Of a DNA stretch of 64,000 bases, positions 43,063 through 62,400 are shown one piece after another. Both the position numbers and the translations under genes were made by a program. Positions within the stretch are counted from its first letter, which is position 1, and every line of letters begins with the position of its first letter. The DNA lies in assembly GCA_965153455.1 (NCBI GenBank), contig OZ234493.1:2976001-3040000 (forward strand). Direction: 5' to 3'. This DNA is from Sphagnum compactum (lineage: Eukaryota). The notes beneath the pieces are model-generated. The model did no database searches. It was not told the DNA's origin and worked only from the letters and a program-made list of their open reading frames with translations.

Positions 43063-44987
43063 AATCAAAGGTGAAAAGTAAACTCCAAGATGCCCGTTAC
43101 AAATGTAAGGCGCAAACCTAGGAAGTTCCGGAGACTAAGCAATATGTGCATATCAGAAAAAGGATAGGAATTTGAAATCAGTGTGTCAAAGTCAAAGGTG
43201 AATATATTAAAGTCCAAGGTGAACATTTTGTCGCACAGCCTGCGAAACTTGTGGCTTGATCTCTGGAATTTCTTTCTTAGGTTTATCCTTTCAGTTAAGT
43301 TTCCCTTTCAATTTTGGCTAACTGTTCTGAAGTTCCTATCCTCTTTGGATATTTGACAGTCCCTTGTAACTTGAGGCTTGTTCACAGGAATTTCATAAAT
43401 TTTCTGCTCATACTTGAAGCAGGCTATAGTGTCAGTATCCCAAAAGGATAGGAATGTTATAGACTAGTAGTATTCAACACCATAGATGACCTTCAGCCAA
43501 AATAGTTTTATTAATGGAAAGAAGACCCAAGCTCAAGGTGCCCATGATGGCAAAAGTGTAAGGTAGAAAAGCCCAATGCCGCAGGGTTTTACTGGAATAA
43601 AGCCGGTGTGAGGTGTGGCCAACTGCAGGCCTAATTCCTGTTGTATGTATGAGGATAAACCAAGGAAATTCGTGAGATGAAGCTGCAAGTTACATGAGGC
43701 TGTATGTAGTATAAGGGCCGCATTACATGAGGGTCTGATGTCCAAGGTCCAATGAAATAGAGCAATACTATTGGCTGAGAGTCAATAATTGGGCCTGTGG
43801 CCTTTAGATGAGGGTTCAAGACCAAAAATTGGCCAATTGAAGCTAAACCTACATGGCACCATTTTTGGAGGGAAAATTAATTGGTTTGGACCCAAAAAAA
43901 GGAGCTCAAAGGAGAGCTCATGATTTGGAGAATGAAGGTGGAAACTAGGGTCCAACTTGCTTCAAATGAGTCCAAATTGGTTCCTAAGACTTTGAACCCT
44001 GGACCCCATCTAGTGGGCCTACGTTTCCAGATGGGACAAGAATGTTAGAGAGGTATGTCAAAATCAAAGGCTAAAACTAAACTTAAAATGTGAACATTAG
44101 GGTGCAAAGCCCACACATGTGCGGCTTGTGATCAGAAACAAATGTCAAATTCAAGTTGCAAACCTGCAGCGAGTTGCAATTTGAGATTCCACAAAGTATT
44201 CAAACACCATAGATGGACGGCAACCAAAAAAGTCTTGTTAGTGAAAAGGAGACGCAACCTCAAGGTGCACATGATGGCAAAAGTATAAGGAAAAAAGCCC
44301 AATGCCAGGGGCTTTACTCGAATAAGGCCCACGGGAGACAGGGCCAACTGCAGGCCCAATTCAGGTAACAGCCGATGGCTGAGTGCCATACTTAGCATAG
44401 AGACCCGCTCAAAAGTTTTCTTTCTTCCAAAAAATCAGAAAAATATGCATCATTTTTCAGAAAACAGAATGCCCACTATGGCAGGCATTAAAATTTTTGG
44501 AAGACCCCACAAGCAGCAGAGGAAAAAATCTGCTCAGTAAATTCCTTCAAATTACAGTGACAAAATCTCAGCAGATCTTCAGGCCGGAGCTAACATTTAT
44601 ACCTTTATCTTCAATCCTAAGAGGTACTTATCCATATGAATTGTCTGAGGAGCAAAAGAGGCCAGTGTTCTTAAGAAGAATGTAATCAGTTTGGGTGTCC
44701 TATTCTTGTACTTTTTTTGTGTTTGTTTCTTAGGTGGAACAGGAACTTCACTTTGACCTAATGGAGTGCTGCCAAGCGAGAACAGAAAGTGCCCTAATAG
44801 TCAGGTCACTATTGGTTCACTACACCATGAACAGGATGAACAAAGGAGATTAGGTAGGGAGTGTAATCTATTCTTCAAAATAGAAGTGTTTTGTTTGTTT
44901 TGGTTCTTTGTTTTGCAAGCTATGAATGTAGAATGGGAGTGCGAGCACTTGGTTTACAGTTAGTTCTTGGTGTTGTGTGGTGTGAGG
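43063..44987 (-). repeat. Dispersed repeat copy 2, inverted relative to 16041-17657, with ~330 extra bp (about 44632-44962)
   Basis: Reverse-complement match; the terminal gttcttggtgttgtgtggtgtgag matches 16041-16064. Confidence 0.9.
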
Positions 44988-46068: not shown

Positions 46069-47961
46069 TATGTTGTTTTCTTTGAGATTAAGCTAGTTTT
46101 CAATAAAAGCTTTCCCTTAAATACCTAATTCAAGGATTTAATCCTCACTTGCTTAGCTGATTTAATGTTTATCCACCCTAATTTCTTCCAAAATTTCAAT
46201 GAACTAAAAACATAAGTGATTGATTAAATCTCCCCTTGAATGATAATTTCATAATTGTTCTTTGTGTGAATGAAAAGAGGGATCTTAGGTGTACTTATCA
46301 AGGTGGGATTGTGACCTAAACGGAATCCTAAACTTAAAAAAGGTTAAATTTTCTGTCCTAAACTGGCGGTTGGTGGTGCGATGTGACTGTTCATGAGCAC
46401 ACTCATCATGTGCTGCTCAAAATAGTGTGTTTGTTTGCTTTGTACAAAGGTTTCAGGTTGTGCATCCATGGAGGAAAGAGAATGTGGTTGCCTTGTTTCT
46501 CCTGATTTCAAGGATGAGCTTGCTAGTTCTATTGTTTTGGTTTTTGTTCTTCATGATGCCTTGTGGGATCAAGGTTCTGATTGGTGGACTAGATCGTCGA
46601 AGGATGATGAGCTGCTACTATTTGAAGGAGGTGGTTGGTTTTTGGAAGACAAAAGACAACCTAAGTATTTTATGGCTAAATTATGTTTGTAGCAGAGGAT
46701 AGAACTGTGATAGAACCGGTGTAAGTTGAACTGCATGGAGATGAATGCTCTATGTGCTAATGTTCTCCGCAATTTTGTTGCGTTGCAGATACAGAATTCT
46801 ACGTAGTAAGTTTGTTATAGGCTGGTGGTGAAAATGCTGTAGAATATTAGAGGATTTGTGAGTGACTTCCTTCATGGCGTTGTATCAAGTGAGATGAAAT
46901 TGGGGAGTTGGGATGAGTGGAAGGGAGTGCCTTGGTTGGCGCTCTGAGTTTGGGATCTGCAACCAGTCCACTGATTCGGGGTTTGGACAAAAATTATTGA
47001 ATGTTCGGTTCTTCAGGGATTGGGATGATGCTGGGATTCTTTCCTTGTGAAAACTTCGGGGATTCAATGAGTGAGAGTTTGAAGCAATGCCATAATGTAG
47101 TCGGTTGATGCTCAATGAGAATGATTCCAGAATGTTCAGATTAACCTAAGCCTTAAGGTTCAAAAGTAGATATTGTGTAGTTTAGTTTCAGGAATAGATT
47201 TGTGTGTCAGTAAGTATGGACCATGGTTCAAGTAACTGAAAGAAAGCGTTGTGATTCCAATTTACCCCCTCTTTTTTGGCCACAGGATCCTTCTGGAATG
47301 TATTTCCAGGAGGAATAACATTCATATGCCCTCCAGATTAGGAAATTTATTTAAGAGCTTCACGCTAACTAGAAGCCAATAGCAGTCGATAACAAGCCAG
47401 TTTGTCCTAGTGTAGACTTTTAGAGCCACTAAAATGAGCACTCACATCCAATTTAATTTAGTGGCTGGGATAATATTCCAATATCCACAATTACATGCAT
47501 AAATGCAGCTGAGAGATAAACAGCTGGTGCAAGTTTCACATATCAATTACCAGCACAACTGGATCAGGAGAGACCAATTTCCCCATAGAGCAAACAGTTT
47601 ATGCAAGTAGGGCCACCCCGCGGTAGGGAGCTGATGGGCGCTGCAACTTGTATGTCGTTTTCGTTAGGAATCCAGACTCGAGTAGATCTGAGTTCATACT
47701 TAGGGAGTTTTAAGCCACCCACACACATAACATTACAATTGAGTGCCTCATGAAAGTCCTGGCCAGCTTGAGGTTTATGAACCCAATTTGATTTGTACTA
47801 AAGTAGACTAGTCATGAATTTGTAGCAGGGACACTAGCAAAATTGCTCCAGGGTGAAAGGGTCAACTGAATTTGACATTGGTCACAGGAATTGAAAGCTT
47901 TTATGAAGCGCAGCTAAGTAATCAGGCAGCGGCAGTGGAGACTCCAGGCTAAGGATAGGAA

Positions 47962-48477
47962 ATGGGGTCTCTGAGAGCTGGAGCAGTTTTAGTAGCTATA
48001 TTGGATGTTGTGGTCATCTTGCAGGCTTGCCACTCCTGCATGGGATTAAGGCAAGTCCTTTCCACTGGACAGAGACATGCTCATGCGGGCTCATCAACAT
48101 TGCAAAATAGCTGGAAGTCTACACGATCCCAGATCAGTCTGAGACATCCACCGAAGATTTGCCAGCTGACATTAAGGTACATAACGAAGTAGTCGCTGGT
48201 TTTATTAGGAGCGTGCAGAAATGGATATGAATCTGGTTGTTAATTGTCGAATGTCTCATGCAGATCGAGCCTTCATGTCCTTTTGGCTTTTGCAGGTCTT
48301 GAGAACACCAATGATTCACAGAGACCATCCAGATTCGCCATTGCCGAAGGCTTACAACACTAGCTCGTATTCTGAAAGGGTAGAGGCAGTAGCGCAAAAG
48401 GAGTTTGGCTCGTGGGGATTACTTACACTCTCGTCAATTGATGAGCTCCAGTGCAGGAGGAATCAAAAGCCAGGTGA
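47962..48477 (+). pseudogene. 5' fragment of an aspartic protease paralogue (exon 1 frameshifted, exon 2 from 48296 truncated by Copia)
   Basis: VVVILQACHSCMGLRQVLS and VLRTPMIHRDHPDSP match the 29816 gene; homology stops at aagccaggtga|TGGACAAAG. Confidence 0.9.
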
Positions 48478-48896
48478 TGGACAAAGAAAAGGAATCACAC
48501 TACAAAGCTTAATCTTGCTAAAAACTATACTAAAATGGATTAGTGACTCAAAACTAGTTCCTATAGAGAGATGGATCAATGATTCTGAGATGATCTAATG
48601 GGAACTTGCGATGTGCTTATATGCACATGGAGGATCGCTCAAAGATAAGGCTAGTAACTGCTAGTAGGTGGAAATAGTTGCCATGCAACAAGGGTAATCC
48701 AGAATAAAGTGCACATGGGTGTTTAATTAATGCATTAATGAAAGTGTAACGAATTCAATTCGGTGCACATGCCACCATTTCTGATTTATTGTGATAGCGT
48801 GGAAATGAATGAGACTACTAAAATTAACTCGAACGCTAATTTGTCGCTACTGTTTAGTGCTCCCATTAAAGTAGCTTGACTACATGCTACCTACAC
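48478..48896 (-). mobile_element. Probable 3' LTR of the minus-strand Copia element
   Basis: Removing the Gypsy insertion joins this segment to the Copia RNase H end: AAAATGAGAG|TGTAGG...TATAA...TGTCCA (PPT-like tract, TG...CA). Confidence 0.55.
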
Positions 48897-49235
48897 TGTC
48901 ATGACCATATGTGTGTTAGCTATAACATATAGTGTGATATGGTAGCGAGTAGTGCCTACTTAGGCTTTCTAGGTTTAGGGTTAGAGGAGAGTGGTTGTTC
49001 TGGTAGGACCCACCCTCATGTTGTGAGTGGGGGTATAAAGTGTGTGAGAGGGCTCAAAGAACATAGTTCTTTGAGTTGAACCTAGAGCGTTGGGAGTAGT
49101 TGGAATTAGTGGAGCTTTGAGCTATGGTGTCCCGTTAGCATCAACTTAGATTCTCTGAGTGGAGTGGGCTTGGCTTGACTATATGTTTTTGCATCACGAG
49201 TTTTATGATAGTAGATCTTTCTCGTGACGTTTTCA
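48897..49235 (+). repeat. LTR segment A1 (333 bp + TTTTCA), with TATA box at 49034
   Basis: Matches 58955-59293 with roughly 22 mismatches by eye; TGTCATGA...TC(A/G)TGAC(A/G). Confidence 0.92.
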
Positions 49236-49251
49236 CTCAAAGAACTATGTT
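49235..49251 (+). promoter_or_regulatory. Primer-binding site complementary to the element's own LTR (49060-49076); putative self-priming PBS
   Basis: ACTCAAAGAACTATGTT is the exact reverse complement of AACATAGTTCTTTGAGT; there is no TGG tRNA-type PBS. Confidence 0.75.
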
Positions 49252-50231
49252 TTTTGGGAGTAGTTAAACCGTGGGGGTTTTGTGATCTCACTCTCTGGTT
49301 GTGTGGTCGAATTGGGAGTGGGTGGTGTCAAAAGGAGCGCCTTGGCGAGAGCTTTTCAACGCACCAAAGATTGTTGGATTTCGTTGAACGGATCAAAAGT
49401 TATGATCATTTGAAGTTGCTAGTTTAGGGTTTGACAGTTTTTGTTGACGGTTTACCAGCGACGTTAATTTCTCAGATAAGTGGAAATTTCCTTGAAGAAA
49501 GTTGCTGAAAATTGGTAGGAGTGTAGCTAGAGAGCCGATCTACAATCTAGCAAAGACAGATTGTGTTTTCATTGAGCGGTTTATGCGTTATGTTTGTTTT
49601 TGTGGTGATGGTTTTTTCTGGTTTGTGCACACCTAGTGCGGAAGCGTTGTCGGATTTTTAACTAAATAACTAGGGAAGATCATGTGCTGCAATTTTGTAA
49701 AGTTGTTGCTTGAGGGCTGAATTGCATTTGGGAATTGTTTGGGATTTTTTTGGTGGAGCCAATTGAGAGTATTGACCTTCGAAAGATCTCAAGTTTGTGT
49801 AGATTTATGCCCAGGTTTCTTTCAACGGTTTTTCGTAGGTCATATCTTGGCACACAAACCTTCTTTTCAGTTGAGTTTTGGAGGGAAGGAAAATCTAGTT
49901 GTCCTCTACATTCTGGTCGAAGTAAATTGGCATTTGGTGTAGGAACGGTGGAGATATGGTTGTTTGAATGTTCGCAACCCAATTTCGCAAGTTTTGGTTA
50001 TGGCGGATTAGGGATTTCGCCGGAAATTGAGCTTTTGGCTAGTGGGGAGCACATTTTTCGACTTGTTGTGGTGGGCCGGTTGGATGAGTTGAGCCGCTAC
50101 TCAACTAAGTGGTTGAGTTGAGTATTCATTTCTGGTAGCAAATCGAGCATAAGGTCGACGATATTTAGTGGTGATTCAATTTGGGTACTGGGTTTGGTGA
50201 TTGGGTCATCACGGAGTAGTTTGGTGGTCCT

Positions 50232-52630
50232 ATGGGGGACCATGGTGGAGATGGTGGAGTTAAATGTAGTGGGTTGAGGTATCGACTACCTTCCCCCACA
50301 TCATCGGTTGTTGAAGAGGATGAAGTTATCGTGAATAACAAGTCTTCCATATTACCGTCTAGTATTGCGGCCCCATTGATTTGGGATATGGACAGGGGTT
50401 CTGGGGCCATGAAGGGCCCCCAACGTTACTCAGGTGCAGTGGGCACCATCGAGTTGGAGGACTTCATTCAGGAGTTTGATTCTTGGTGTGATATGCAGAT
50501 GTTACATAACGCCAGATTGTTCTCACCCTTCTTGGCATGGAAGGGATTGTTTCAGCACTTGGAGGGTCCTCCGATGGATGATTATCATGAGTTTCGGAGA
50601 GATCATGCTACTGAGATTGAGGAGTGGAGGCAGCATTGGTCTCCATCCTATGTATCTATTACTCACGGTGGTGTTGTTAGTGGTGATACTACTACACCGT
50701 CTACTCCTAGTACGAGCACACAGGTTGTTCCCCCACCTCCGTTTAACCCTATCACGGAGTTCTTTTTGAGGCTGAAGAAGAACTACCAGGGGGTGAAGAC
50801 GGAGAAGTTGAAGAGTCTTCAGGAATTTGAGCGGAAGACTAGTGAGAGTCTTCACGAGGCATACACTCGTATGCGACGGTTGATTGTAGTTACCCAGGGG
50901 GTGACGGAGGCTCAAGCAGTCCAATTTTGGTATGGGATTCTGGACAAGGAGTTGCGACGGAGAGCACGCGATGTGACTCTCATGAGTGACGATTCTCCCA
51001 CATTGGCCCATGTGTTTGCTTTGTCTGAGAAGATAGAGCTTAACATGGTGGAGGAGAGGGTGGTGACATCTGGATTCAATAGGGATATAGTTACTACTTC
51101 TCGTGGACAACAGTCCACCTCACAACCTCATACTGGTGGAGGTGGGAGTCGTGGAGGTCAGGTACGACCTCAATCAGGTTCTGGAGGGACGAGTGCACAA
51201 AGACCGTTGCCTTCATTCGCTAGTCAACAGCAGGGACAATCTTGTTGGACATGTGGTGGTGCTCATATTTGGAGGGATTGTCCACAGGAGAGTGGTGGGC
51301 GGACTTTGGCTGATGGATTTTAATCTGCACAAGTTCAATGTGATAACTGTGGCCGGGTCGGCCACCCTCGTGAACATTGTTTTGACCTTTACCCATAATT
51401 GAGATTAGGTCGTGGTGGAGCGACTCAAAGAGGTCGTGGTGGTAGAGGTGGTAAAGGTGGTGGGGGTGGTAGAGGTACACCGACGGTTAGGGCACCTCTC
51501 GTGATCACTCCTCCCCCTACGACAGAGGCAGCTATGGCTGCTAGGATTAAGCAGTTGGAGCAAAGGTTTGCTACCATGGCAAGTTTCCAGCATCGATCAC
51601 ATTCAAGAAGTGAGGCTCCCACATCTTATGGGGGAGATGATCTCTTTTATATGGCTAGTGTAGCACAAATTGAGGCGTCCGTTGCAGTGACGAGAAGCGT
51701 CACTCGAGCCTCGGAGCCACGTGGGGCAACTATGGAGTTGGATCCACAGAGGGATGAAGCTGGTAGACAGGCCAGGCTTCCCCAATCATTCTTGTTGTCT
51801 GAAGTGGTTAGGACTCCTTCCATGGTTCCTACACCGCCTATTGAGCCAACAGTGGGGCCAACAGCATCGACATCACATGTAGTGGACACGGATGTATCAT
51901 CGAGTGCAGTCTCGCGGATGGTGACTTCAATGTTGGGATCCCCAACATTTTCGGCTAATGATTTGATGGCGTCAGGAGTTGACTTAACTCGTGTATTTCG
52001 ACTAGCAGCCATATTGTGTGAACGTGGGAGTGTTGTTGCTATAAGTGCCGAGGTGTGTGAGGGTGTTGATGTGGGGCAACTTGTGGCGGGGGATGTTGTT
52101 GTGGAGCAACTCGTGGTATCAGGTGTGGATAGTCCTTGGCAGGCGACGGCGGCTAAGATGGATGCATTACCAGCTCGACCGGCCATTGATCGTGAGAGGC
52201 TTACACCTGGTGTATGTATGTTGGATAATCGAAGTGGTATTTTCTGGTTGGTGAGTCCTACGGGCCAGGTGTATAGACCAGATCGGGTTTTGTTGGATTT
52301 TGGTGCCGAACCCTTGATGTTGGGGAAGGCAGCATGTATTGGTTTGGGTATTCGGAGGTCAGAGCTTGAGTCGTGCCCATTCCAAATTCAGACATCACTT
52401 GGTGGAGCTAGTGATAGGTCTAACTTCATGACACGTGAGAAATTGTCGGTGCAAATGAAACCTGATCATGTGACAGATAGTTCTAGGTTGGGAGTGACTG
52501 CTGTTATTACAACAGCTGAGTCGTATGATGTACTAGTTGGAGGTGTCGTGTTGTATCCAATGGGTTTTCAGATGGATTATTAGACAGAGACAACGACTTA
52601 TCGACCCGGTTGGCAGTCTGGGGATGGACG
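50232..52630 (+). pseudogene. Gag (two zinc knuckles, RGG-rich) plus retropepsin-like protease of the Gypsy element
   Basis: One frame broken by single stops. Motifs: QxxxESLxxxxxR-like gag motif, CWTCGGAHIWRDC, CDNCGRVGHPREHC (51339-51380), VLLDFGA...YDVLVG. Confidence 0.8.
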
Positions 52631-53019
52631 GATGAGCCAGGTGCGTGTGAGATTTATTTCTGGGGTTCGACCAGGAGGGTCTCCCCCAGAGGTGTTGGCA
52701 TCAGTTCCTGGTTTTAGTGGAGTGGTCACTTGGCCAGGTGACTTGTTGGAGGGCAACATTTCAACCATTGACACTTCGGTTTACGAGGATATAGAGGAGG
52801 TTTCTAGTTTTGTTGCAGTAGTGTCCTCCTCATTGGATGTTCCACTTTGGTGTTCGAATGGGGTGTTACGGCAGGATGTCGATCGTTTGGTATCACAAGC
52901 TTGGCGTGAGGCTTTTGTGCATGTGGAGGAGGAGGAGGTTCCACAACGGACTCCTATTTCTGGTCCTGTTGGGTTGTCTCCATTGGATACTACACCCATT
53001 GCGTGGGAATATCCTTCCG

Positions 53020-53975
53020 AGGGTATTTACGTGTTGGATCTATTTGGTGGGATCAGCACTGGTTTGGCAACAGTGCTTCAAGCAAGTATTCTAGTTCGGA
53101 AGTACCTTTACGTGGAGATAAATGAGACCGCGAGGAGGGTTTCATCGCGCCATCTTGCATTATGATGCAGTGATATCCTGAGTTGTTGCCAAGGTCGATT
53201 ATTCGAGGATATCAGCGGGCTTTGCCATCAAACATTGCATTGTTGGGGGCTCAAGACCTTGCGAGAGTTGGTCCTATTAATTTGGTGATTGCTAGATGGC
53301 CATGCTAGGGTCATACTCGGGCTGGTCGTGGTGAGGGATTACGTGACCCTCGATCTCGTATGTTTTGGGAGATGTTGCGCCATCTTCAGACACATCAGGC
53401 ACGTGTTCCCACGTACATTCTGGAGAATGTACCTTTGTTGGGTGATACTAGGTCTCATGTGATGGCAAGTGTACACCAAATCCGGTCTTGGATTGGACCA
53501 GCGGTTTTATTGGATGCAGCGAGGGTTGGTTCGCGTGCTCATCGTCCCCGATTGTCGTGGACGAACTTGTTGCCGAGGGAGGTGTTGAAACGGGCATATG
53601 AGACAATACCACAATCTTCTCACCTCATAGTGGATAGTATCTTAGATATCGGGCGACGTTCTCAGGTGGTGAAAGTTGTTGGTAGGTCACCCATGGCAGT
53701 GGTGAACCGAATGGGACAGCCTAGGATGGCGTTACCCACATTTGTTAGTTTTCCAGCATCACATGCCTGTAGAGAGGGTGGTCCCGGGCTTGTATGGGAT
53801 AGTTGTTTGCAGCAATTGGTGGAGCCCAACGCCGATGAAAGAGAGCGTGCAATGGGGTTTCCTACAGGAGTGACATTTGTCCCTTCTATTTCCGAGGCTT
53901 CACGTCGACAAGTGTTGGGTCAAGCTATGGACCTGAATTGTTTGACTTGGATTGTTAGCCTTGGTATGGCTGAGT
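53020..53975 (+). pseudogene. DNMT3-like DNA (cytosine-5) methyltransferase domain inside pol
   Basis: Motif I VLDLFGGISTG (53031), II YLYVEIN, IV LVIARWPC*G (Cys at 53303), VI ILENV, VIII AHRPRLSWTNL, IX ERERAMGFP, X RRQVLGQAMD; one frameshift (~53162) and two stops. Confidence 0.9.
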
Positions 53976-54299
53976 AGCGTCGGCTCTAAGCCACATTTGT
54001 AGTAGTTACACCTCTTGTGAGCTCGCTGTCCACTGTGACGGTAGAAGCATCGACTAGGGGCGAGGAGAGTTGTACTTTTCATCCTTGGAGTACATGGGAT
54101 GTGTTGGGAGAGCATGTGAAGGTTGTGGCCCATGCTGTTGGAAGAGTTTGTTGCTCCATTGGTGTTCCATTGGGTGACTTGGAGGAGCGTGTGGCTATTC
54201 CCAAGGTTTTTGCATAGCAACCTATGGCGTCGTCCTCTTCCTTTAATGTGTCTATCGAAGAGACTTGGGAGCCTTTGATGGGGCCCAAGCTAACAAGAG

Positions 54300-56726
54300 G
54301 AGAGAGGCGACGGTTGATGCAATTCCTAAGAGCTTACAGGAGTTGTTTTGCCTTTAGTATGAAAGAGTTGGGTGCTTTGATTGAACCTGGTATACGGATT
54401 GAGTTGGCTAGTGACACGCCAATCTTCCGTCGTCCTTATAGATATAGTGATATGGAGAGGGTCCTGATTCGGAGTCGGACGTTTTTCTATTGGAGGTTGG
54501 ATTAGTGGAATTGTTGCATGGTGAGTATGCATCAGCCACTGTCATGCCTACCAAAAAGGATGTACATGGCAACTACACGAATAGGCGGATGTGTGGAGAC
54601 TAACGTCTTATCAATCGGCAGACTAAGTCCGATAAGTATGCCATGCCTACACCTGAAGAAATCTTTAATGTTGTGGGACATGCGAAGGTTTTTAGTACAC
54701 TTGATCTTCGAGCAGGGTACCATCAATTGCCGATTTGAGAGGAGGACAAGGCCAAGACCGCATTTTGGGGCGTCAACTCTCACGGCAAGGATTGTTTGTA
54801 TCAGTGGAAGTTCTTACCCTTTGGGTTGAAAAACGCGCCTGCCGAGTTTCAACGTGTGATGGATAGGATCTTAGCAGGGTTGGATTTTTCCAGTGTTATA
54901 TCGATGATATTGTGTAGTGATACCGTGGAAGAGCACCAAATTCATCTACAAATTGTGTTTGAGCGGCTGAAGGCTCATGGTCTTCGTCTACATCCTGGGA
55001 AGTGTAAGTTCTTCCAAGAGAGTGTGGAGTATCTGGGTCATGTGATCTACCCAGGTGGTTTGGGAATGCAACAAGCCAAGGTGGAGGCTATTGCACATAT
55101 TCTGCATCCCACGGATGTGAGTAGGGTTCGTGTTTTCATGGGATTGACGAACTACTATCGCAGGTATGTCAAAGGCTTTAGTGCGATGGCAAAGCCTTTG
55201 AACATGTTGAAGTTGGATCAGGAGTGGCAGTGGGGTGATGAGCAGGAGCGAGCTTTTGTGGAGCTCAAGGCTAGGTTAGTTGCAGCTCCCATCTTGAGGA
55301 GGCCTATTAGGGGGCGTTCATTCCAGCTACACACTGATTGGAGTATGTTGGGACTTGGAGCAGTGTTGACACAGTGTGATGATGAAGGGAAGCAGTTTGT
55401 GGTGGGCCGGTTGGACGAATTGAGCCGCTACTCAGCTAGGTGGTTGAGTTGAGTATTCGTTTCTGGTAGCAAATCGGGCACGAGGTCGACGGTATTTAGT
55501 GGTGATTCAATTTGGGTACTGGGTTTGGTGATTGGGTCATCACGGAGTAGTTTGGTGGTCTTATGGGGGACCATGGTGGAGATGGTGGAATTACACGTAG
55601 TGGGTTGAGGTATCGACTACCTTCCCCCACATCATCGGTTGTTGAAGAGGATGAGGTTATTTGAGTGAAAATGTCATGAGAAAGATCTACTATCATAAAA
55701 CTCGTGATGCAAACACATACAGTCAAGCCAAGCCCACTCCACCCAGAGAATCTAGGCCGATGCTAACGGGACACCATAGCTCGAAGCTCCACTAACTCCT
55801 ATTCCCAACACTCTAGGCTCAACTCAAAGAACTATGTTCTTTGAGCCCTCTCTCACACTTTATAGCCCCACTCACAACATGAGGGTGGGTCTTACCAGAA
55901 GAGCCACTCTCCTCTAACCCTAAACCTAGAAACCCTAAGTAGGCACTACTCGCTACCATAGCACACTATATGTTATAGCTAACACACATATGGTCATGAC
56001 AGCTGTCGTGCGAATACATATCGTCATACAACATACATCGCTGACATACCATACTCACATACACACACAAACACATAACATGGACGAAAGCATACACAAA
56101 TACATGTGTACCACATGTGATGGCAAAGCCTTTGAACATGTTGTTGAAGTTGGATCAGGAATGGCAGTGGGGTGATGAGCAGGAGCGAACTCTTGTGGAG
56201 CTCAAGGCTAGGTTAGTTGCAGCTCCCATCTTGAGGAGGCCTATTAGGGGGCGTCCATTCAAGCTACACACTGATTGGAGTCTGTTGGGACTTGGAGCGG
56301 TGTTGACACAGTGTGATGATGAAGGGAAGGAGTTTGTGGTGGCCTATGCAAGTCGTTCGAACAATGTAGCGAAGTCACGTTATAGTTCTTACAAGGGAGA
56401 GTGTTTGGCAGCGGTGTGGGCTGTTGCACACTTCAGGTGTTACTTGTTTGGCACACAGTTTACCCTTGTCATTGATCACCAGCCGCTCAAGTGGTTGATG
56501 GAGTCCGATAAACTTACAGGAAAGCTTGCACGGTGGGCTCTCATCTTACAGGAGTATGACTTCCAGGTGGTGCATAAACCTGGAGTTACAAACCTTGATG
56601 CCGATGGGTTGAGTCGGAACCCATACACTAGCCAGGAAGATAATACTGGAGCTAGATGGCATGGCGAGGTTGATGAGGAGATGGTGCCAGGTTGGCATGC
56701 ATCGGCCTTTTTGTGCTTGTTGGGTG
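54300..56726 (+). pseudogene. Reverse transcriptase and RNase H of the Gypsy element, interrupted by an internal rearrangement (55397-56115)
   Basis: RRPYR, YAMP, FSTLDLRAGYHQ, LPFGLKNAPAEFQR, YIDD (54897), KCKF..YLGH, LHTDWS..GLGAVLTQ, AYASR, DHQPL, ADGLSR. Confidence 0.93.
55666..56115 (-). repeat. Inverted complete LTR (B-GC-A-TTTTCA), followed on its own strand by the first bases of the PBS
   Basis: Reverse complement of 58841-59293; begins exactly at TGTGG. Confidence 0.9.
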
Positions 56727-57134
56727 ATCTAATTAAGTTTGATCACATCACAATATGCAAACACCCTAATCAAAAGTTTGATATGTCATGACGAGCATCT
56801 AATCCAAATGCATTTAAGAAAGCTTTTGTCCAAAGTCCTACATATTCCAATGTGCATGACCAAAATCATGGTTCATCTTTTCCATCTTCTTTTTCTCTCT
56901 TTTGGAAACATGATCTTTTGATTTGATTGTTAGTAATGGAGCTTGCGGAGCTTTGGGCACCATTTGAGATTGTTAGCTTGAAATCTAAAACCTTTGTAAA
57001 AAAAGCTATAGGCAATGGATCTTGCAACAACAAGCTCTCTCACAACTACCACAAGTTGTTTTGAAGCAAAAACAATTATTTAAGACCTTGCATTTGTTGC
57101 AAAACAACACTGCAAACCCCTAAACCCAACCCCA
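56727..57134. other. AT-rich foreign insertion between RNase H and integrase
   Basis: Abrupt composition shift that breaks the pol frame; ends in aaacccctaaacccaacccc. Confidence 0.6.
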
Positions 57135-57425
57135 GGACTCTAGTATGGAGGGCCACGTGACATCTTACTCTAGTCAAAGGGTAGATGGCCAGTTTTCAGA
57201 TCCTGAGGTTGGGGATGGTAGCATCGGTCACCATGATGTTCATGATGATAAATAGTGTTGGAGTTTTTACAAACCAGTATGGTGTCAGGCATGGTGAGTG
57301 CTAAGGAGAGAGACCGTGTTCTCCAACGAGCTAAGAGGTATCGGTTGGAGGGGACACATATACTCCGAGTGTGGGAGGATGGTAGGGTACGGACTGTACC
57401 ACATCCAGACTAGAGAAGGCGTATT

Positions 57426-58685
57426 GTGCGGCATGCCCATGAGGAGTTGGGGCATTTTGGAGTAAAGCGGACATATAGCTTACTCCTAGGTCAGTATTGG
57501 TGGCGCGGTATGCACACCGATGTGCAACGATTAGTGTCACATTGCATGGTTTGTGATAGGGTGAGGGCATCGTTCAATGCCCCTACACCACAGTTACACC
57601 CCTTGCCTATTATGGGGTTGGGTTATCGCTGGAGTTTGGACTTTGCGAGACCATTACCATTGACGGTACGGCACAACAAATATGTGTTGGTGATGGTGGA
57701 GCACTTCTCCAAGTGGATTGAGTTGGTGCCATCCCCTGACAAATCCAGCAAGGGAGTAGCGTATGCATTCCTTGATAGGTTGCTTAGTCATTTTGGTGCA
57801 CCAGCTGAAGTGTTGACCGATCAAGGTACGAAGTTTCAGGGTGAGTTTCAGGTCTTGTGTGACAAGGCGTTGATTGATCACCGAACCACGTCTCGAGATC
57901 ATCCAGAGGCAGATGGTTTAGCTGAGCGTGTGGTACAAACGGTGAAAAGGGCATTACGCAAATATGGCTTGCAGAAAGGCCACCTAGGGGATTGGGATAT
58001 TCAATCACCATGGTTGGCCATGGGATATCGATTCAATCGTCAGGCATCCTTGGCTTCCTTCTCACCTTATTTTCTATTGTACGGCCGAGATCCAGACTTG
58101 CCAACAACGATTCGTCGTGAGTCTAGTGAGGTGGTGAACCTTGATGACCCGAAAATGTGGTTGAGGGTGTGTTCTCAACGTGCAGAGCTCTTTCGAAGAG
58201 TTATGCCAGCAGCGTTTGAAAACCTTGCCATTGCTCAACATAGGGATACATTGCGATATGCGATTATCCGGGGTGGAGGTTATGGACCATCGATCCGTGG
58301 GTTCCATGTGGGGGACTATGTCTATTTGCAGCAGACTGCACCAACGACATTGGATGTAACGGCAGGCCGCACTATCTTACGAGTGCGAGAGGTGTTAGCT
58401 TCTGGAGTTCTCATGTTGGAGGGTCACGATGGTGTTGTTTGGAAGGACCATGTGTGTAATTGTGCGCCATGTCACCTCCCAAATGTGGATGGTACAGTTG
58501 ACCCAAGTTTGGTAATGGTACGGGTCGGCTTGAGGTGTATGTTATGTGGGTCTAAAGGTGGAGCAGCCCATATGTTGGTGTGTGATAGATGTTCTAGGGG
58601 TTGGCACATGGCATGCATGACTCCACCTATGGATGTTGTTCCCGTTGGACGGTGGGTTTGTCGTCGTTGTACTTTGGAGGGGTAG
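57426..58685 (+). CDS. Gypsy DDE integrase (HHCC, core, SH3-like) with a C-terminal PHD finger (58536-58670); open fragment of a dead polyprotein
   Basis: HEELGHFG...CMVC; WSLDF, LTDQG, GLAER; FHVGDYVYL; CMLC...CDRC...WHMAC...WVCRRC (C4HC3). Confidence 0.9.
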   Translation: MRHAHEELGHFGVKRTYSLLLGQYWWRGMHTDVQRLVSHCMVCDRVRASFNAPTPQLHPLPIMGLGYRWSLDFARPLPLTVRHNKYVLVMVEHFSKWIELVPSPDKSSKGVAYAFLDRLLSHFGAPAEVLTDQGTKFQGEFQVLCDKALIDHRTTSRDHPEADGLAERVVQTVKRALRKYGLQKGHLGDWDIQSPWLAMGYRFNRQASLASFSPYFLLYGRDPDLPTTIRRESSEVVNLDDPKMWLRVCSQRAELFRRVMPAAFENLAIAQHRDTLRYAIIRGGGYGPSIRGFHVGDYVYLQQTAPTTLDVTAGRTILRVREVLASGVLMLEGHDGVVWKDHVCNCAPCHLPNVDGTVDPSLVMVRVGLRCMLCGSKGGAAHMLVCDRCSRGWHMACMTPPMDVVPVGRWVCRRCTLEG

Positions 58686-58840
58686 ATGACATGGTATGGA
58701 TTACAGATGGGCGACTAACGATGGGGCAACATAGCACCCGGCCTTTTGATTCGTGCACCCGCGAAGGTGTATAACATGTAGAAGATGTATAGGGCTACCT
58801 GGAAGTTAGAGGGACCTAACCACCAGCTAGGGGGGCAAGT

Positions 58841-59407
58841 TGTGGTACACATGTATTTGTGTATGCTCTCGTCCATGTTATGTGTTTATGTGTGTATGTG
58901 AGTATGGTATGTCAGCGATGTATGTTGTATGACGATATGTATTCGCACGACAGCTGTCATGACCATATGTGTGTTAGCTATAACATATAGTGTGCTATGG
59001 TAGCAAGTAGTGCCTACTTAGGGTTTCTAGGTTTAGGGTTAGAGGAGAGTGGCTCTTATGGTAGGACCCACCCTTATGTTGTGAATGGGGGTATAAAGTG
59101 TGAGAGAGGGCTCAAAGAACATAGTTCTTTGAGTTGAGCCTAGAGCGTTGGGAGTAATTAGAATTAGTGGAGCTTCGAGCTATGGTGTCCCGTTAGCATC
59201 GGCCTAGATTCTCTGGGTGGAGTGGGCTTGGCTTGACTTTATGTGTTTGCATCACGAGTTTTATGAAAGTAGATCTTTCTCATGACATTTTCAGTTGTGG
59301 TACACATGTATTTGTGTATGCTCTCGTCCATGTTATGTGTTTGTGTGTGTATGTGAGTATGGTATGTCAACGATGTATGTTGTATGACGATATGTATTCG
59401 CACGATA
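58841..59407 (+). repeat. 3' repeats: PPT, B1 (58841-58952), GC, A2 (58955-59293), GT, B2 (59296-59407)
   Basis: Polypurine tract AGGGGGGCAA-GT just before TGTGGTACAC; B is repeated after A. Confidence 0.9.
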
Positions 59408-59410
59408 ACA

Positions 59411-62400
59411 CTCTCATTTTGTCAAGGTACTCTTGAAGAATCAAGCCTAGGAGTTGTTACATGCACTTGAAGTGCTTTGGTGCAAGAACAGGCTTTGTTA
59501 GGGCATCAGTGTCCATGTCTAATGTGGAACAATTTTGAAAAGAGACTTCTTTTGCATTCATCATCTCCCTGACAAAGTGGTGTTGTATGTCCATATGTTT
59601 AGTTCGCTTGTGGTGAACAAGGTTTTTGATTAATGCTAGATTTCCTTGGTTGTCATTAAAGGTTATTGTAGCATCCTTTGTGGAAAACCCAACTCCTATA
59701 GCAACTTTCTAAGCCACATGGCTTCTTTAGTGGCAAATGAAGCTACCATGTATTATGTTTTCATCGATGAGAGGGCCACAATTGGTTGCTTCTTACTCAC
59801 CCAATTTACAACTCCCAGTACAAATGCAAACCAAGTTGTGGACTTCCTAAAGTCTAAATCTCCACCCCAATATGATTCTGAAAAACCCTTGAAGGTTATT
59901 CCCTCTTCATCTCCTCAATATTGTAACCACAAATCTTGCGTTCTTTGAAGGTATTGAAAGATTCTCTTGGCAGCTACCTAGTGTTTTCTAAAGGGGTCTA
60001 ACATGAATTGACTAATTATGCTCATTGATTTAGAAAAATATGGTTTAGTAGCAACCATTACATACATAAGGTTACCCACAAGTTCCTTGTATGGCATGTC
60101 CATCATCTCTTAGATTTCCTATAAGGTTTTTGGTGTAATATTTTTGCCCAGTTTACTAATGGTTTCTAAAAGCGTCACTATTACAAAAGTGGAGTGTAAT
60201 TCACTAGCCTAAATCACTATTGGACCTTAAAAATGAAATAAGCTCACTGCACTTTAGTGATTTCACCTTGGTTAAAGTTATTTCATATCACATTGTGTTT
60301 CATTATTGATTGACATTATTCACTATTATAATTTACTGTGATAAATAAATTTATTTTTATGTTATTGTTTTGAATACCTTGTGTTATTTTATGATATACC
60401 TTATATTATTTTAAGTTATTTTAGTTATTCTAACTTATACTCTAACTTATTATAAGTTATTATAGGCTATAATAAATTATTATACCTTAAACTATTATAC
60501 ATTATTATACTTTAAGGTATCCTAGTTAGTTTATTATAAAAATTTTACTTCAAATTATTTTAAATTAAATTATTCAACTAACCTTAGGCTATACCTTAAA
60601 TTATTTTATTTTAAATTAATATATGTTATTTCAAATTATAATTTATGTTATTATAAAGTATTTTATCCTAAGTATAACAATTTCAAATAATCTAAAATAT
60701 AATATAATGACCTAAGGTAAAATAACCAAAAATAACCACCAATATAATAACCATCAATAAAATATATAAGCACTAATAAAATAGTCACTAATAGCCACTA
60801 ATAGAATAACCAACAATAGCTGCAAAACCAATAGTCATAAATAGTTTATGTTAATATAGCCTAAAATAACCAATAATAGCATAAGGTGAAAAAACTTTCA
60901 ATAGCAAAAAACAACCAACAATAACTCTACATAGCCAAAAATAGCCTAAGATGAAATAGCTTAGAATAGCCAAAAATAACTTGGAATAACTGCAAATAAC
61001 CTAAAGTGAAATAGCCTATAATAGCAAAAAATAACATCAAAAGTAACTTACAATATTCAGATATAATCTAAGGTTTAATAGCTTAAAATAGTCCAAAATA
61101 ACATAAAATAACCAAAAATAACTAAAGGTGAAATAACTAAAAATAATTAAAAATAACTAATAATAACCATAAACAGTTGTGAGATAACTTAGAATAATGA
61201 AAAGTAACCCTAAAATAGTTGAAAGTAGCTTAACATAGGTAGTATTATTATATTAGCAAAAACATTTATCCATTTATTAAACATTTTGTTTTTCAAAAAA
61301 AAATTCATTGAAATGTTATTGAATAATGATTTTCACAAAAAAAAATTGTGCAAATGATTTTACATTTTTAAAAGGAAATAAATGTAATTATGTACATTAT
61401 TGAAAAAAAAATTAAATTAAACTTTAATCATTTCATTTGGACAAAATCTAAATAAGATATGAATTTTCAAAGTTTATGTTTTTGTAATGTTTAAAATGAA
61501 ATATTTGATAAATAGAACGCAGCATAACACATTATCACAATAATTGTGGTGCCTTGATTGTAGGGGTGTTTGCCTTCATCCTAGAGGTCAAAAGATCAAA
61601 CCTCACAAATGGTGTATTTATGGTCAATAATGATAAGTTGACCAAATATTTTCCTATGTAGTTCCCTAAAGTAGGTGCCTAGTTAAATTGATTACATGGC
61701 CTATGTACCTAGGCTAAATTTTAAACCTAGCATAGGTAATGACACATGTCAATAATTCATAGGATGAAAATCATAAAAATATCAATAATATTAAATATAA
61801 CACTAAGTATTAAATCATTTAAATTTAATTGATATCCATGCTACTTAGTTAATTAACTAGCAAGTAAAATGGTTTGATAAATTTGTATTTCACTAGGTGT
61901 TAGTGGACTAATTCACTGTCTTTGACAACTAGTCTTCATCCAATTGGGGGTTGACCAATTTCACCCTGGTAAAAATGTCCAAATTCGCTCAAAATCTAAT
62001 GAAACCTAAAATGAACTAAAATGCATTTTGTTGTAGAGTGTAGACATAGGTTTACAACTTTCCATGCCGAACCACTTAAAAATTTTGTTGATGTATTTTG
62101 GCTGACCAAGCTTAATGGTTCTACGCTACTAATCTCTCGTTACTTAGATCCCAAGAAAAAATGCAAGATCCCCTAAGTCTTTCATTTTAAACTCCTGTGA
62201 CAGAAATGTTTTCACTCTTTCAACTGTTGCGATCTCCTAGTTAAAAATCAATAAGTCATCTATGTATAATGCTAAGAATGATGACTCTTGGTTTTTCAAG
62301 TAATAAATACTAGGATTTGTTTGACATTTTTTGAATCCTAGATTGAAAAGGAAAAAATCCATTGTTTCACTCCTTTTGGTTTTTTCTAGAACAAAATCTT

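What the first reader, a model, noticed from the sequence alone, without database searches (positions are those of the whole stretch)
50232..58685. Gypsy retrotransposon whose polyprotein contains its own DNMT3-like cytosine methyltransferase
Seen: between the protease and RT there is a complete C5-MTase with motifs I, II, IV, VI, VIII, IX and X in order. Gag, PR and the MTase N-half share one frame; after a 1-bp shift the MTase C-half runs in frame into RT. The domain is therefore integral to pol and not a passenger fragment. Established: the motifs parallel DNMT3 (VLSLFDGIATG, PC, FENV, AHRARYFWGNL, EMERVFGFP, RQRLLGRSW) rather than MET1/CMT or the permuted DRM. From memory, DNMT-bearing retrotransposons have been reported in dinoflagellates and the charophyte Klebsormidium; I do not recall a characterised land-plant family. 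Inference: the enzyme may methylate nascent cDNA or the insertion site, for self-silencing, host mimicry or protection.
Basis: partly seen in the sequence, partly recalled or inferred. Interest (0 to 1): 0.92.

Follow-up and report, generated by a model that had tools for sequence, protein, structure and literature searches.

The report
Moss retrotransposon with own DNA methyltransferase
This is a dead copy of a jumping-gene family of mosses and liverworts that carries its own DNA-methylating enzyme, a kind of element described in print so far only for a freshwater alga and for dinoflagellates.

Summary
Between the protease and the RT lies a C5-cytosine methyltransferase with motifs I to X in unpermuted order. 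A family profile matches DNMT3A/B/C at E 2e-21, against DRM at 1e-9.

The window copy is a pseudogene. The full element is 48897-59407, with a 4-bp target duplication (ACAC). It has seven unexpected in-frame stops before the RT, a one-base frame break near 53162 and two internal insertions.

The domain is a family trait, not a capture:
- 35 metagenome loci, 86-95% identical in DNA, hold the full MTase region.
- Named proteins come from Marchantia, Calypogeia, Riccia and four Sphagnum species.
- In every relative I mapped the order is gag, PR, MTase, RT.

Two intact relatives give MTase dN/dS of about 0.16.

- The MTase ends ORF1 (Gag-PR-MTase). A conserved in-frame TAG, in a TMV-like read-through context, separates it from ORF2 (RT-RH-INT-PHD).
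- The integrase ends in a PHD finger.
- The terminal repeats are split (X...Y-X-Y), as the figure legend for KnitGypsy-Dnmt3 describes.

Verdict: a land-plant member of a known kind. What the enzyme does is untested.

The parts
48893..48896 (+). 5' target-site duplication ACAC
   Evidence: The same four bases stand at 59408-59411. Other copies carry 4-bp duplications too: AAGG, AATC, TACA, CACA.
48897..49235 (+). Repeat X1 (339 bp; starts TG, ends CA). This is the element's 5' end and no Y precedes it.
   Evidence: 317 of 339 bases match X2. In 0 of 12 unique copies with a complete 5' end does Y stand before X1.
49236..50231 (+). Non-coding leader
   Evidence: It is collinear in 12 other copies. 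Median pairwise distance is 0.10.
50232..51320 (+). Gag-like part of ORF1, with a CCHC knuckle at 51243-51260. It ends at an unexpected TAA at 51321.
   Evidence: It matches gag of Marchantia P0005 at 67%. The zf-CCHC Pfam hit is in relative L032. The window ORF itself has no Pfam hit.
51399..52580 (+). Protease region of ORF1 (active-site stretch LLDFGA at 52290-52307)
   Evidence: It is collinear with relatives whose PR passes or nearly passes the Pfam Asp_protease models (P0021, L056). The window ORF itself has no Pfam hit.
52584..53162 (+). Linker and MTase N-part (motifs I and II), frame 0
   Evidence: Best PDB match is DNMT3A residues 16-54.
53163..53200 (+). Break zone, where a one-base length difference changes the frame
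   Evidence: table 4.
53201..53974 (+). MTase C-part (motifs IV, VI, VIII, IX, X), frame 2. A TAG at 53306 follows directly after the catalytic PC.
   Evidence: PF00145 at 27.9 bits with X at the stop. This stretch was the query that found 52 relatives.
53975..54214 (+). Tail of ORF1 after the MTase (stops at 53975 and 53987 in this copy)
   Evidence: The 'link' piece is collinear in relatives. Other copies read C where the window has T at 53975 (table 3).
54215..54217 (+). Family-conserved in-frame TAG between ORF1 and ORF2 (here TAG CAA CCT)
   Evidence: The context is TAG CAA CCC in 29 loci and TAA CAA CCC in 8. It is TAG-CAR-YYA in L032, L055, L056 and L057. Five Marchantia proteins end at this place.
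54218..55405 (+). Reverse transcriptase (two frames, two stops)
   Evidence: RVT_1 at 65.2 bits; tblastn map.
55406..56115 (.). Rearranged insert: a copy of leader 50066-50329 followed by an inverted Y-X unit
   Evidence: 95% and 96% identity to the source stretches. Other copies lack it.
56116..56726 (+). Duplicate of the RT end (56116-56342 equals 55182-55405) followed by RNase H
   Evidence: RT_RNaseH at 118 bits.
56727..57134 (.). 408-bp insertion private to this copy
   Evidence: Contigs of RNA and DNA runs join 56726 to 57135 (table 5). No other match in the window or in the loci.
57255..58685 (+). Integrase (zinc-binding H2C2 domain and DDE core) with a C-terminal PHD finger (58536-58670)
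   Evidence: Integrase_H2C2 58.7, rve 49.6 and PHD 38.4 bits. PHD matches in the PDB.
58829..58838 (+). Polypurine tract AGGGGGGCAA
   Evidence: It stands directly before Y1 in all copies that I looked at.
58841..58952 (+). Repeat Y1 (112 bp; starts TG, ends CA)
   Evidence: 110 of 112 bases match Y2.
58955..59293 (+). Repeat X2. The Y1|X2 junction reads ACA-GC-TGT, an 8-bp palindrome.
59296..59407 (+). Repeat Y2, the element's 3' end
59408..59411 (+). 3' target-site duplication ACAC

Best explanation
Window 48897-59407 is a decayed insertion of a multi-copy Ty3/Gypsy-type retrotransposon family of bryophytes.

Shown for intact relatives:
- ORF1 encodes Gag (CCHC), an aspartic protease and a DNMT3-like C5-cytosine methyltransferase.
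- ORF2 follows in the same frame after one TAG. It encodes RT, RNase H and a DDE integrase that ends in a PHD finger.
- The element has TG...CA ends and makes a 4-bp target duplication.
- Its terminal repeats are split: X, internal part, polypurine tract, Y, X, Y.
- The methyltransferase is an inherited and selected part of the family.

Inferred:
- The TAG is leaky. It sits in the tobamovirus-type context UAG-CAR-YYA, so Gag-PR-MTase would be made in excess and the RT-INT fusion only by read-through.
- The MTase would then travel with Gag and methylate the newly made cDNA, or DNA at the insertion site. I put this at about 0.4.
- The PHD finger would guide integration by reading histone H3 tails.
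For: Anatomy and domains of the window copy.

Family trait:
- The MTase query found 52 proteins of 453-2000 aa.
- I mapped window pieces onto those 52 proteins. The order gag, PR, MTase, link, RT holds in all that span those parts.
- 35 metagenome loci carry the full MTase region at 86-95% DNA identity to a reference copy, and the whole element is collinear in them.
- A profile search found 123 proteins of 249-1271 aa. The named ones come from Marchantia polymorpha, Calypogeia fissa, Riccia sorocarpa and Sphagnum troendelagicum, fallax, tenellum and jensenii.

DNMT3-like:
- Profile against PDB sequences: DNMT3A/B/C at 2e-21, DRM at 1e-9, HaeIII at 8e-8, HhaI at 5e-7, DNMT2 at 4e-4.
- The first 48 ranks of the Foldseek list are all DNMT3A/B/C chains (E 1e-10, TM-score to target about 0.70).
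- The PC and ENV motifs are present in 32 of 32 type-A domains.

Selection:
- Intact pair L056 and L057: MTase dN 0.20, dS 1.24; ORF2 dN 0.07, dS 1.20.
- Decayed copies, dN/dS: MTase 0.51-0.54, gag 0.50, INT-PHD 0.59, RT 0.31.

ORF1/ORF2 stop. The read-through consensus is quoted from PMC3542737 (passage read).

Repeats and target duplications.
Against: - No activity has been shown for any member.
- The nearest published element's MTase (KnitGypsy-Dnmt3) gave no methylation in yeast. The authors call this inconclusive (PMC5890265 section 10).
- Among the close copies only 2 of 36 MTase regions are free of stops and frameshifts, so the family looks extinct or nearly so in this genome.
- dN/dS among those copies is only about 0.5, and dS of the intact pair is near saturation.
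- The window family's stop context (TAG CAA CCC) misses the last base of the read-through consensus.
- RNA-library contigs cover the element, but the tool warns that DNA may be present in such libraries, so transcription is not shown.
- No host DNMT3 sequence was available, so the placement within the DNMT3 clade rests on profile and fold ranking and not on a tree.
- Motif conservation cannot tell a DNA enzyme from an RNA enzyme (DNMT2 has the same motifs).
Confidence: 0.85

Rival explanations
1. A one-off capture. A fragment of a host DNMT3 gene was picked up by this single element, or lies next to it by nested insertion.
For: This copy is broken in the MTase. The N-part alone has no Pfam hit.
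Against: The same domain stands at the same place in 35 other DNA copies, in a second subfamily (L048, L050, L051), in intact distant elements (L032, L056, L057) and in proteins of at least seven named bryophyte species. There is no sign of introns, and ORF1 is continuous in P0005 and L056.
Confidence: 0.01
2. The bryophyte family acquired its DNMT3-like domain independently of KnitGypsy-Dnmt3 of Klebsormidium. The likeness would then be convergent, a third acquisition by Gypsy elements.
For: No protein named Klebsormidium appeared in three searches (52 hits; the best 120 of 153 listed; the best 120 of 123 listed). The paper speaks of an acquisition 'in the K. nitens lineage'. The MTase occupies two different places in related elements: before RT, or between RNase H and INT. 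So the domain is mobile within polyproteins.
Against: The legend of Fig. 4c of PMC5890265 says KnitGypsy-Dnmt3 has DIRS-like repeats, A-coding-B-A-B. This unusual arrangement is exactly what is found here. The MTases of the two architectures are far closer to each other (E below 1e-76 for the best 150 representatives) than to DNMT3A (2e-21), which suggests one old origin in green-lineage elements.
Confidence: 0.2
3. The MTase does not methylate the element's DNA. It acts on RNA, or it is kept for a structural or binding role in the particle.
For: KnitGypsy-Dnmt3 showed no DNA methylation in yeast. DNMT2, which carries the same motifs, is a tRNA enzyme; it matches the family profile at 4e-4. 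The domain sits in the Gag-PR ORF, next to the nucleic-acid-binding CCHC protein.
Against: The best sequence and fold matches are DNA enzymes of the DNMT3 type, by 17 orders of magnitude over DNMT2. The catalytic PC and ENV motifs are kept in 32 of 32 type-A domains. In the same yeast test human DNMT3B was also inactive.
Confidence: 0.15
4. The MTase serves self-limitation. It marks new insertions with 5mC so that they are silenced at once, which spares the host and so the element. This differs from protecting or disguising the cDNA.
For: The authors of PMC5890265 raise this as one possibility (section 11). In this genome the copies are heavily decayed, mostly by transitions. In run X15, 645 of 735 places that differ are transitions. 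Of the 40 best supported differences, 29 have A or T in the window where other copies have G or C.
Against: Transition-rich decay is expected of any methylated plant transposon and says nothing about who wrote the mark. CpG observed/expected is alike in decayed and intact elements (0.54-0.61 against 0.28-0.70).
Confidence: 0.2

Closest known systems
KnitGypsy-Dnmt3 of Klebsormidium nitens (de Mendoza et al. 2018, PMC5890265; passages and sections 10 and 11 read)
   Same: A Gypsy-type element with an unpermuted DNMT3-like domain inside its polyprotein. The domains are intronless and divergent from the host DNMT3. Ka/Ks is below 0.2 (here about 0.16 for an intact pair). The repeats are arranged as in DIRS elements, A-coding-B-A-B (here X...Y-X-Y).
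   Different: The host is a land plant (moss; relatives in liverworts). I could not compare sequences or domain order, because no K. nitens protein came up and figures and supplements are not held. The paper's text does not mention a PHD finger (0 occurrences). The passages and sections I read mention no target duplications of this element and no stop between the MTase and RT; I ran no search for those terms.
SymbioDIRS-Dnmt3 of Symbiodinium (same paper)
   Same: A DNMT3-like domain in a retrotransposon polyprotein, with split repeats A-coding-B-A-B. Its MTase methylates CG de novo in yeast.
   Different: That element uses a tyrosine recombinase and belongs to DIRS. The element here has a DDE integrase (rve) and 4-bp target duplications.
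Green-algal Gypsy elements with RT-RH-MTase-INT-PHD ('type B' in this report: L062, P0049; named hits in Monoraphidium, Haematococcus, Scenedesmus)
   Same: The MTase is related (33-39% identity to the window's; profile E below 1e-76). They share the integrase with a C-terminal PHD finger (window INT 49% identical to P0049).
   Different: There the MTase lies between RNase H and integrase in one long ORF. I found no paper that describes them. PHD fingers in Chlamydomonas transposons are mentioned in PMC8557442 (passage read).
Host DNMT3 (animal DNMT3A/B/C; plant and bryophyte DNMT3)
   Same: Catalytic domain with the same motif order, and the best profile and fold matches.
   Different: No PWWP or ADD domain in ORF1 (no Pfam hits). 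About 22% identity to DNMT3A in the fold alignment. The domain is encoded inside a transposon ORF.
EpiLTR elements of Cymbomonas and Euglena (bioRxiv 10.64898/2026.05.21.726589; passages read)
   Same: LTR retrotransposons of the green lineage that carry a cytosine MTase.
   Different: Their MTase is reported as sister to DNMT4, sits at the 3' end of pol, and comes together with an adenine MTase and a chromodomain.

Membership tests
Ty3/Gypsy (Metaviridae) LTR retrotransposon | pol order PR, RT, RNase H, INT, with a DDE integrase | tested here: met
   Window: RVT_1, RT_RNaseH, Integrase_H2C2 and rve in that order. Intact relative L056 ORF2: the same, all above the Pfam cut-offs.
Ty3/Gypsy (Metaviridae) LTR retrotransposon | TG...CA termini and a short target-site duplication | tested here: met
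   Ends TGTCATG... and ...CGACA. A 4-bp duplication is perfect in 5 of 6 copies with both ends, the window among them.
Ty3/Gypsy (Metaviridae) LTR retrotransposon | Two identical long terminal repeats, one at each end | tested here: not met
   The 5' end carries X only (0 of 12 unique copies have Y before it). The 3' end is Y-X-Y in 5 copies and Y alone in 5. A second subfamily shows the same arrangement.
Ty3/Gypsy (Metaviridae) LTR retrotransposon | Primer-binding site complementary to a tRNA next to the 5' repeat | not tested
   The sequence after X1 (CTCAAAGAAC...) was read but not compared with tRNAs.
C5 cytosine methyltransferase (Pfam PF00145) | Motifs I, IV (PC), VI (ENV), VIII, IX and X in canonical order, and a score above the curated cut-off | tested here: met
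   Window motifs in order. Window C-part with X at the stop: 27.9 bits against a cut-off of 22. Relatives: 24.7-51.1 bits.
DNMT3 family | Catalytic domain closest to DNMT3 among solved methyltransferases, and not permuted as in DRM | tested here: met
   Profile: DNMT3A/B/C at 2e-21 against DRM at 1e-9. The first 48 ranks of the Foldseek list are DNMT3 chains. Motif I precedes motif IV.
DNMT3 family | N-terminal reader domains (PWWP, ADD) joined to the catalytic domain | tested here: not met
   No such Pfam hits in the window ORFs or in ORF1 of relatives. The only PHD-type finger is on the integrase, in ORF2.
DNMT3 family | Placement inside the DNMT3 clade in a tree with DNMT1, CMT, DRM, DNMT2, DNMT5 and bacterial enzymes | not tested
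   No host or reference sequences could be brought into a tree. The tree holds only transposon domains.
KnitGypsy-Dnmt3-type elements | DNMT3-like domain inside the polyprotein of a Gypsy element | tested here: met
KnitGypsy-Dnmt3-type elements | Repeats arranged as in DIRS elements (A-coding-B-A-B) | tested here: met
   X...Y-X-Y in the window, L052 and L060 (complete), in L010 and L047 (3' ends) and in L050/L051. The feature itself is taken from the figure legend; the figure is not held.
KnitGypsy-Dnmt3-type elements | Purifying selection on the MTase (Ka/Ks below 0.2) | tested here: met
   About 0.16 between intact L056 and L057, with dS near saturation. About 0.5 among decayed copies, like gag and INT.
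KnitGypsy-Dnmt3-type elements | Sequence relatedness to the K. nitens copies (RT, INT and MTase trees) | not testable with these tools
   No K. nitens sequence surfaced. No eukaryote genome can be searched here.
DIRS-like (tyrosine recombinase) retrotransposons | A tyrosine recombinase, and no target-site duplication | tested here: not met
   A DDE integrase is present (rve), and 4-bp duplications are seen.
Chromoviruses | Chromodomain at the integrase C-terminus | tested here: not met
   A PHD finger stands there instead (PF00628 at 38.4 bits in the window; 40.6 bits in L056).

The most novel reading that the evidence does not exclude
This is the land-plant branch of an old clade of PHD-integrase Gypsy elements, spread through the green lineage, that carry a DNMT3-like enzyme. 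On this reading they replicate through a circular or permuted intermediate: a DDE integrase opens a palindromic ACA-NN-TGT site inside the repeat unit, and this gives the X...Y-X-Y and X...Y insertions. They would deliver the methyltransferase in Gag-like amounts through a leaky UAG, so that the element writes 5mC on its own cDNA. None of this has been described for land plants, and Marchantia would make it testable.
Probability: 0.25. Interest if true: 0.8.

Novelty: new member of a known kind. Interest (0 to 1): 0.55.

Why it matters
Transposons are usually the targets of DNA methylation, so an element that brings its own de novo methyltransferase turns that picture round. The role of such enzymes has stayed open since 2018, partly because the known hosts (Symbiodinium, Klebsormidium) are hard to work with.

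The same kind of element turns out to be multi-copy in Marchantia polymorpha. I counted 27 named protein clusters, and ORF1 looks complete in P0005. It also occurs in Sphagnum. Marchantia is a genetic model, so the question could be tested there. My own recollection, not from any call, is that methylomes, mutants of the host methyltransferases and transformation are available for it.

Three features give concrete handles on how the element is expressed, targeted and integrated: the conserved UAG between Gag-PR-MTase and RT-INT, the PHD finger on the integrase, and the split repeats combined with a DDE integrase.

The family is also a practical trap for annotation. UniProt and NCBI list several of these transposon ORFs as DNA (cytosine-5)-methyltransferases.

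Tried and rejected
- Whole genome of the window: none is held, so copy number in the source genome was not measured.
- ESM Atlas look-up of the Marchantia MTase part: best scores 0.85, generic PF00145 clusters, no use for taxonomy.
- The listing of cluster members on 10 representatives gave no organism names.
- The repeat finder on L056, L057, L063, L064 and L032 found no terminal repeats. These contigs probably end before the repeats, so whether the intact distant elements and type B also have split repeats stays open.
- CpG observed/expected does not separate decayed from intact elements.
- Sequencing runs: 20 of 24 listed runs hold part of the stretch, best share 0.40, none half of the words. 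I draw no habitat or strain conclusion from this.
- RNA-library contigs of three runs cover 30, 29 and 29 of 30 bins. The libraries may hold DNA and contigs carry no strand, so I do not count this as expression.
- The 408-bp private insertion has no terminal inverted repeat and no other copy; I did not pursue it further.
- The careful tree search did not finish within the time limit. The quick tree (SH-aLRT support only) is what I cite.
- My motif patterns were written for type A, so their low counts in type B mean nothing.
- Klebsormidium proteins were looked for in three searches and never appeared.
- Supplementary files of PMC5890265 and PMC12344493 are closed. Their DNMT trees may already contain bryophyte transposon sequences.

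Full report
WHAT IS THERE

The region 50-60 kb stands out from its AT-rich surroundings (GC 0.45-0.50 against 0.25-0.43). It holds a string of stop-to-stop ORFs on the + strand. Pfam finds the following in them:
- RVT_1 (65.2 bits)
- RT_RNaseH (118 bits)
- Integrase_H2C2 (58.7 bits)
- rve (49.6 bits)
- a PHD finger (38.4 bits)
- a sub-threshold PF00145 hit (19.1 bits, cut-off 22) in ORF 53309-53977

A three-frame reading and a motif search place the methyltransferase motifs I, II, IV, VI, VIII, IX and X in canonical order between 53040 and 53932. Gag (CCHC at 51243-51260), the protease region and the MTase N-part are in frame 0. The MTase C-part and the RT start are in frame 2.

The change of frame is a one-base length difference near 53162. 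It shows as a 1-nt gap against an intact copy and as one extra base in a DNA-run contig (table 4). With the TAG at 53306 read as X, the C-part passes the Pfam cut-off (27.9 bits).

The copy, however, is a pseudogene:
- Six unexpected in-frame stops lie before 54215.
- ORF2 has more frame changes and stops.
- A 710-bp rearranged insert lies at 55406-56115. It consists of a leader piece and an inverted repeat unit, and a 224-bp duplication of the RT flanks it.
- A 408-bp private insertion lies at 56727-57134.

THE METHYLTRANSFERASE IS DNMT3-LIKE

Each half alone has DNMT3A as its best PDB match, but weakly (E 0.02 and 0.56). I built a profile from 11 family proteins (alignment A1). Against PDB sequences it scores as follows:

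| Target | E-value | Bits |
|---|---|---|
| DNMT3A/B/C | 2e-21 | 79 |
| DRM | 1e-9 | 41 |
| HaeIII | 8e-8 | |
| HhaI | 5e-7 | |
| DNMT2 | 4e-4 | |

No DNMT1 or CMT chain appears below E 0.01.

An AlphaFold model of P0002 has mean pLDDT 61.5, with the catalytic core at about 80-89. In Foldseek against the PDB, the first 48 ranks of the list are all DNMT3A/B/C chains (E 1e-10, TM-score to target about 0.70). The motif order is not permuted, unlike DRM. ORF1 of the window and of its relatives has no PWWP or ADD domain. I could not build a tree with host enzymes, so 'DNMT3-like' rests on these rankings.

IT IS A FAMILY TRAIT

The MTase C-part was searched among proteins of 453-2000 aa and found 52 relatives. 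The named ones are 19 Marchantia polymorpha clusters, Calypogeia fissa, Sphagnum troendelagicum and S. fallax.

I mapped the window's pieces onto these 52 proteins. The order gag, PR, MTase, link, RT holds wherever the parts are present.

A profile search among proteins of 249-1271 aa found 123. It added 8 more Marchantia clusters, Riccia sorocarpa, S. tenellum and S. jensenii. No protein named Klebsormidium, Physcomitrium, hornwort or vascular plant appeared. This is weak evidence of absence, because the search goes by shared words and transposon ORFs are often left unannotated.

A scan of metagenome contigs gave 74 loci. Of these, 35 carry the full MTase region at 86-95% DNA identity to a reference copy, and the whole element is collinear with the window in them. 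Five of the 35 are near-duplicates of others.

In a quick maximum-likelihood tree of 41 domains, Marchantia, Calypogeia and Sphagnum plus the window family each form one clade (SH-aLRT 99-100). The S. troendelagicum protein P0335 nests within the window family. The window therefore most likely comes from Sphagnum or a close relative.

SELECTION AND DECAY

Only 2 of the 36 close MTase regions (L005, L011) are free of stops and frameshifts. The others carry 1-10 stops each.

Pairwise Nei-Gojobori dN/dS among the decayed copies:

| Region | dN/dS |
|---|---|
| RT | 0.31 |
| RNase H | 0.35 |
| gag | 0.50 |
| MTase | 0.51-0.54 |
| INT-PHD | 0.59 |
| PR region | 0.82 |

The MTase is thus constrained about as much as gag and the integrase, even though neutral decay since insertion inflates all the values.

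The two intact distant elements L056 and L057 give, for the MTase, dN 0.20 and dS 1.24 (ratio about 0.16). For ORF2 they give dN 0.07 and dS 1.20. dS is near saturation, so these ratios are rough. The PC and ENV motifs are present in 32 of 32 type-A domains.

Differences between the window and other copies are mostly transitions: 645 of 735 differing places in run X15. Of the 40 best supported differences, 29 have A or T in the window where the others have G or C. This fits deamination of methylated cytosines.

1. The MTase is the end of ORF1.
   - In L056, L057 and L032 a single TAG separates Gag-PR-MTase from RT-RH-INT-PHD, in the same frame.
   - Five Marchantia proteins (P0004, P0005, P0011, P0012, P0013) end at that place.
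   - The window family has TAG CAA CCC in 29 loci and TAA CAA CCC in 8. The window has TAG CAA CCT at 54215.
   - L032, L055, L056 and L057 (4 of 4) read TAG-CAR-YYA. That is the tobamovirus read-through consensus as given in PMC3542737 (passage read).
   - Read-through itself is my inference.

2. The integrase ends in a PHD finger, not a chromodomain.
   - Its best PDB matches are the PHD fingers of CHD4, PHF12, DPF3, KDM5B, PHF21A, AIRE and UHRF1.
   - From my own recollection, several of these read unmodified H3K4.

3. The terminal repeats are split.
   - The element reads TG-X(339 bp), leader, ORFs, polypurine tract, Y(112 bp), gc, X, gt, Y-CA.
   - None of 12 unique copies with a complete 5' end has Y before X1.
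   - Five copies end Y-X-Y and five end with Y alone.
   - Target duplications of 4 bp flank X1 and the last Y in 5 of 6 copies with both ends. They are ACAC in the window, then AAGG, AATC, TACA and CACA; the sixth copy has one mismatch.
   - The Y|X junction is an 8-bp palindrome: ACAGCTGT here, and ACAATTGT in a second subfamily (L050/L051) with the same arrangement.
   - Formally this is a canonical [Y X]-internal-[Y X] provirus, circularly permuted at the Y|X boundary.
   - I cannot tell how it arises. It could come from opening of one- and two-repeat circles at the palindrome, from a DIRS-like template jump, or, for the short form, from Y/Y recombination after insertion.

COMPARISON WITH WHAT IS KNOWN

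De Mendoza et al. 2018 (PMC5890265; passages, figure legends and sections 10-11 read) describe KnitGypsy-Dnmt3 in Klebsormidium nitens:
- a Gypsy element with an unpermuted DNMT3-like domain in its polyprotein;
- Ka/Ks below 0.2;
- by the legend of Fig. 4c, repeats arranged as in DIRS elements (A-coding-B-A-B);
- no detectable activity of its MTase in yeast, which the authors call inconclusive.

The element here matches every feature that I could test. Direct sequence comparison was not possible.

Later papers repeat the 2018 finding and name no bryophyte in the passages I read: PMC12344493 and bioRxiv 10.64898/2026.05.21.726589. The plant LTR-retrotransposon classification of Neumann et al. 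2019 (PMC6317226) holds none of the words PHD, methyltransferase, Marchantia or Sphagnum. The P. patens DNMT3 paper (PMC6453930) names Marchantia only in its reference list and retrotransposons once, in another context.

Seven full-text searches found no description of a land-plant family. Subscription journals and supplementary files are not covered.

WIDER CLADE

A related MTase (33-39% identical) sits between RNase H and integrase in long single-ORF elements that also end in a PHD finger (L062, P0049). A search with that domain found 153 proteins, among them Monoraphidium neglectum, Haematococcus lacustris and Scenedesmus sp..

The family profile, searched against 1.84 billion representatives, finds 570 clusters at E up to 1e-30. 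The best 150 all score below 1e-76, and many are parts of proteins of 1000-3400 aa. In the tree the two architectures separate cleanly (SH-aLRT 100). So the transposon MTases of the green lineage are much closer to one another than to DNMT3A, and the domain has changed its place within the polyprotein at least once.

VERDICT

The window holds a dead member of a bryophyte family that belongs to a known kind, Gypsy-DNMT3. That kind had not been described for land plants in the literature I could search, although dozens of unrecognised examples sit in public protein sets.

What the enzyme does is untested. The reading I favour is methylation of the element's own cDNA by an enzyme made with Gag. 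It rests only on the enzyme's position in ORF1, its likeness to DNMT3 and its conservation.

Noticed in passing
L062:3-5564, L063, P0049 (not in the window): A second architecture puts the related methyltransferase between RNase H and integrase: RT-RH-MTase-INT-PHD in one ORF. It is widespread: 153 proteins, with named hits in the green algae Monoraphidium, Haematococcus and Scenedesmus. I found no paper that describes it.
   Followed up: partly
window 55406-56115, with 55182-55405 duplicated at 56116-56342: An internal rearrangement. A copy of leader 50066-50329 is followed by an inverted Y-X repeat unit, set inside the RT and flanked by a 224-bp duplication. L039/L040 carry a different rearrangement with inverted X and PR pieces. 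This may be template switching during reverse transcription.
   Followed up: partly
window 56727-57134: A 408-bp AT-rich stretch (GC 0.36) present only in this copy. Contigs of other copies join 56726 to 57135. It has no terminal inverted repeat and no second copy in the window or the loci.
   Followed up: yes
window 59457-59708, minus strand: An ORF that, from my own recollection of such sequences and without any search, resembles the C-terminal RT/RNase H end of a Ty1/Copia polyprotein. It begins 46 bp after the element's 3' target duplication.
   Followed up: no
window 60688-61191; also L048:9599-10408, L050:7580-8080 and 17039-18188: AT-rich arrays of short periodic repeats (spacings of 10, 15, 25 and 55 bases) lie beside or inside these elements in the window and in metagenome loci of the same kind of genome.
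   Followed up: no
window 44000-44632 and 16065-16695; 47952-48478 and 29806-30346: Other dispersed repeats of the window (91% inverted and 83% direct), unrelated to the element. The window is rich in transposons.
   Followed up: no
L024, L019, L027, L021, L015 (3' ends): Five copies end with a single Y and lack the X-Y that follows it in other copies. L024 still has a perfect 4-bp target duplication. Either Y/Y recombination removed X-Y after insertion, or a shorter form integrates as such.
   Followed up: partly
P0004, P0015, P0042 and others: Public databases name several of these transposon ORFs 'DNA (cytosine-5-)-methyltransferase'. One such ORF is filed under a bacterial metagenome-assembled genome (P0031). 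This could inflate counts of host methyltransferase genes.
   Followed up: no
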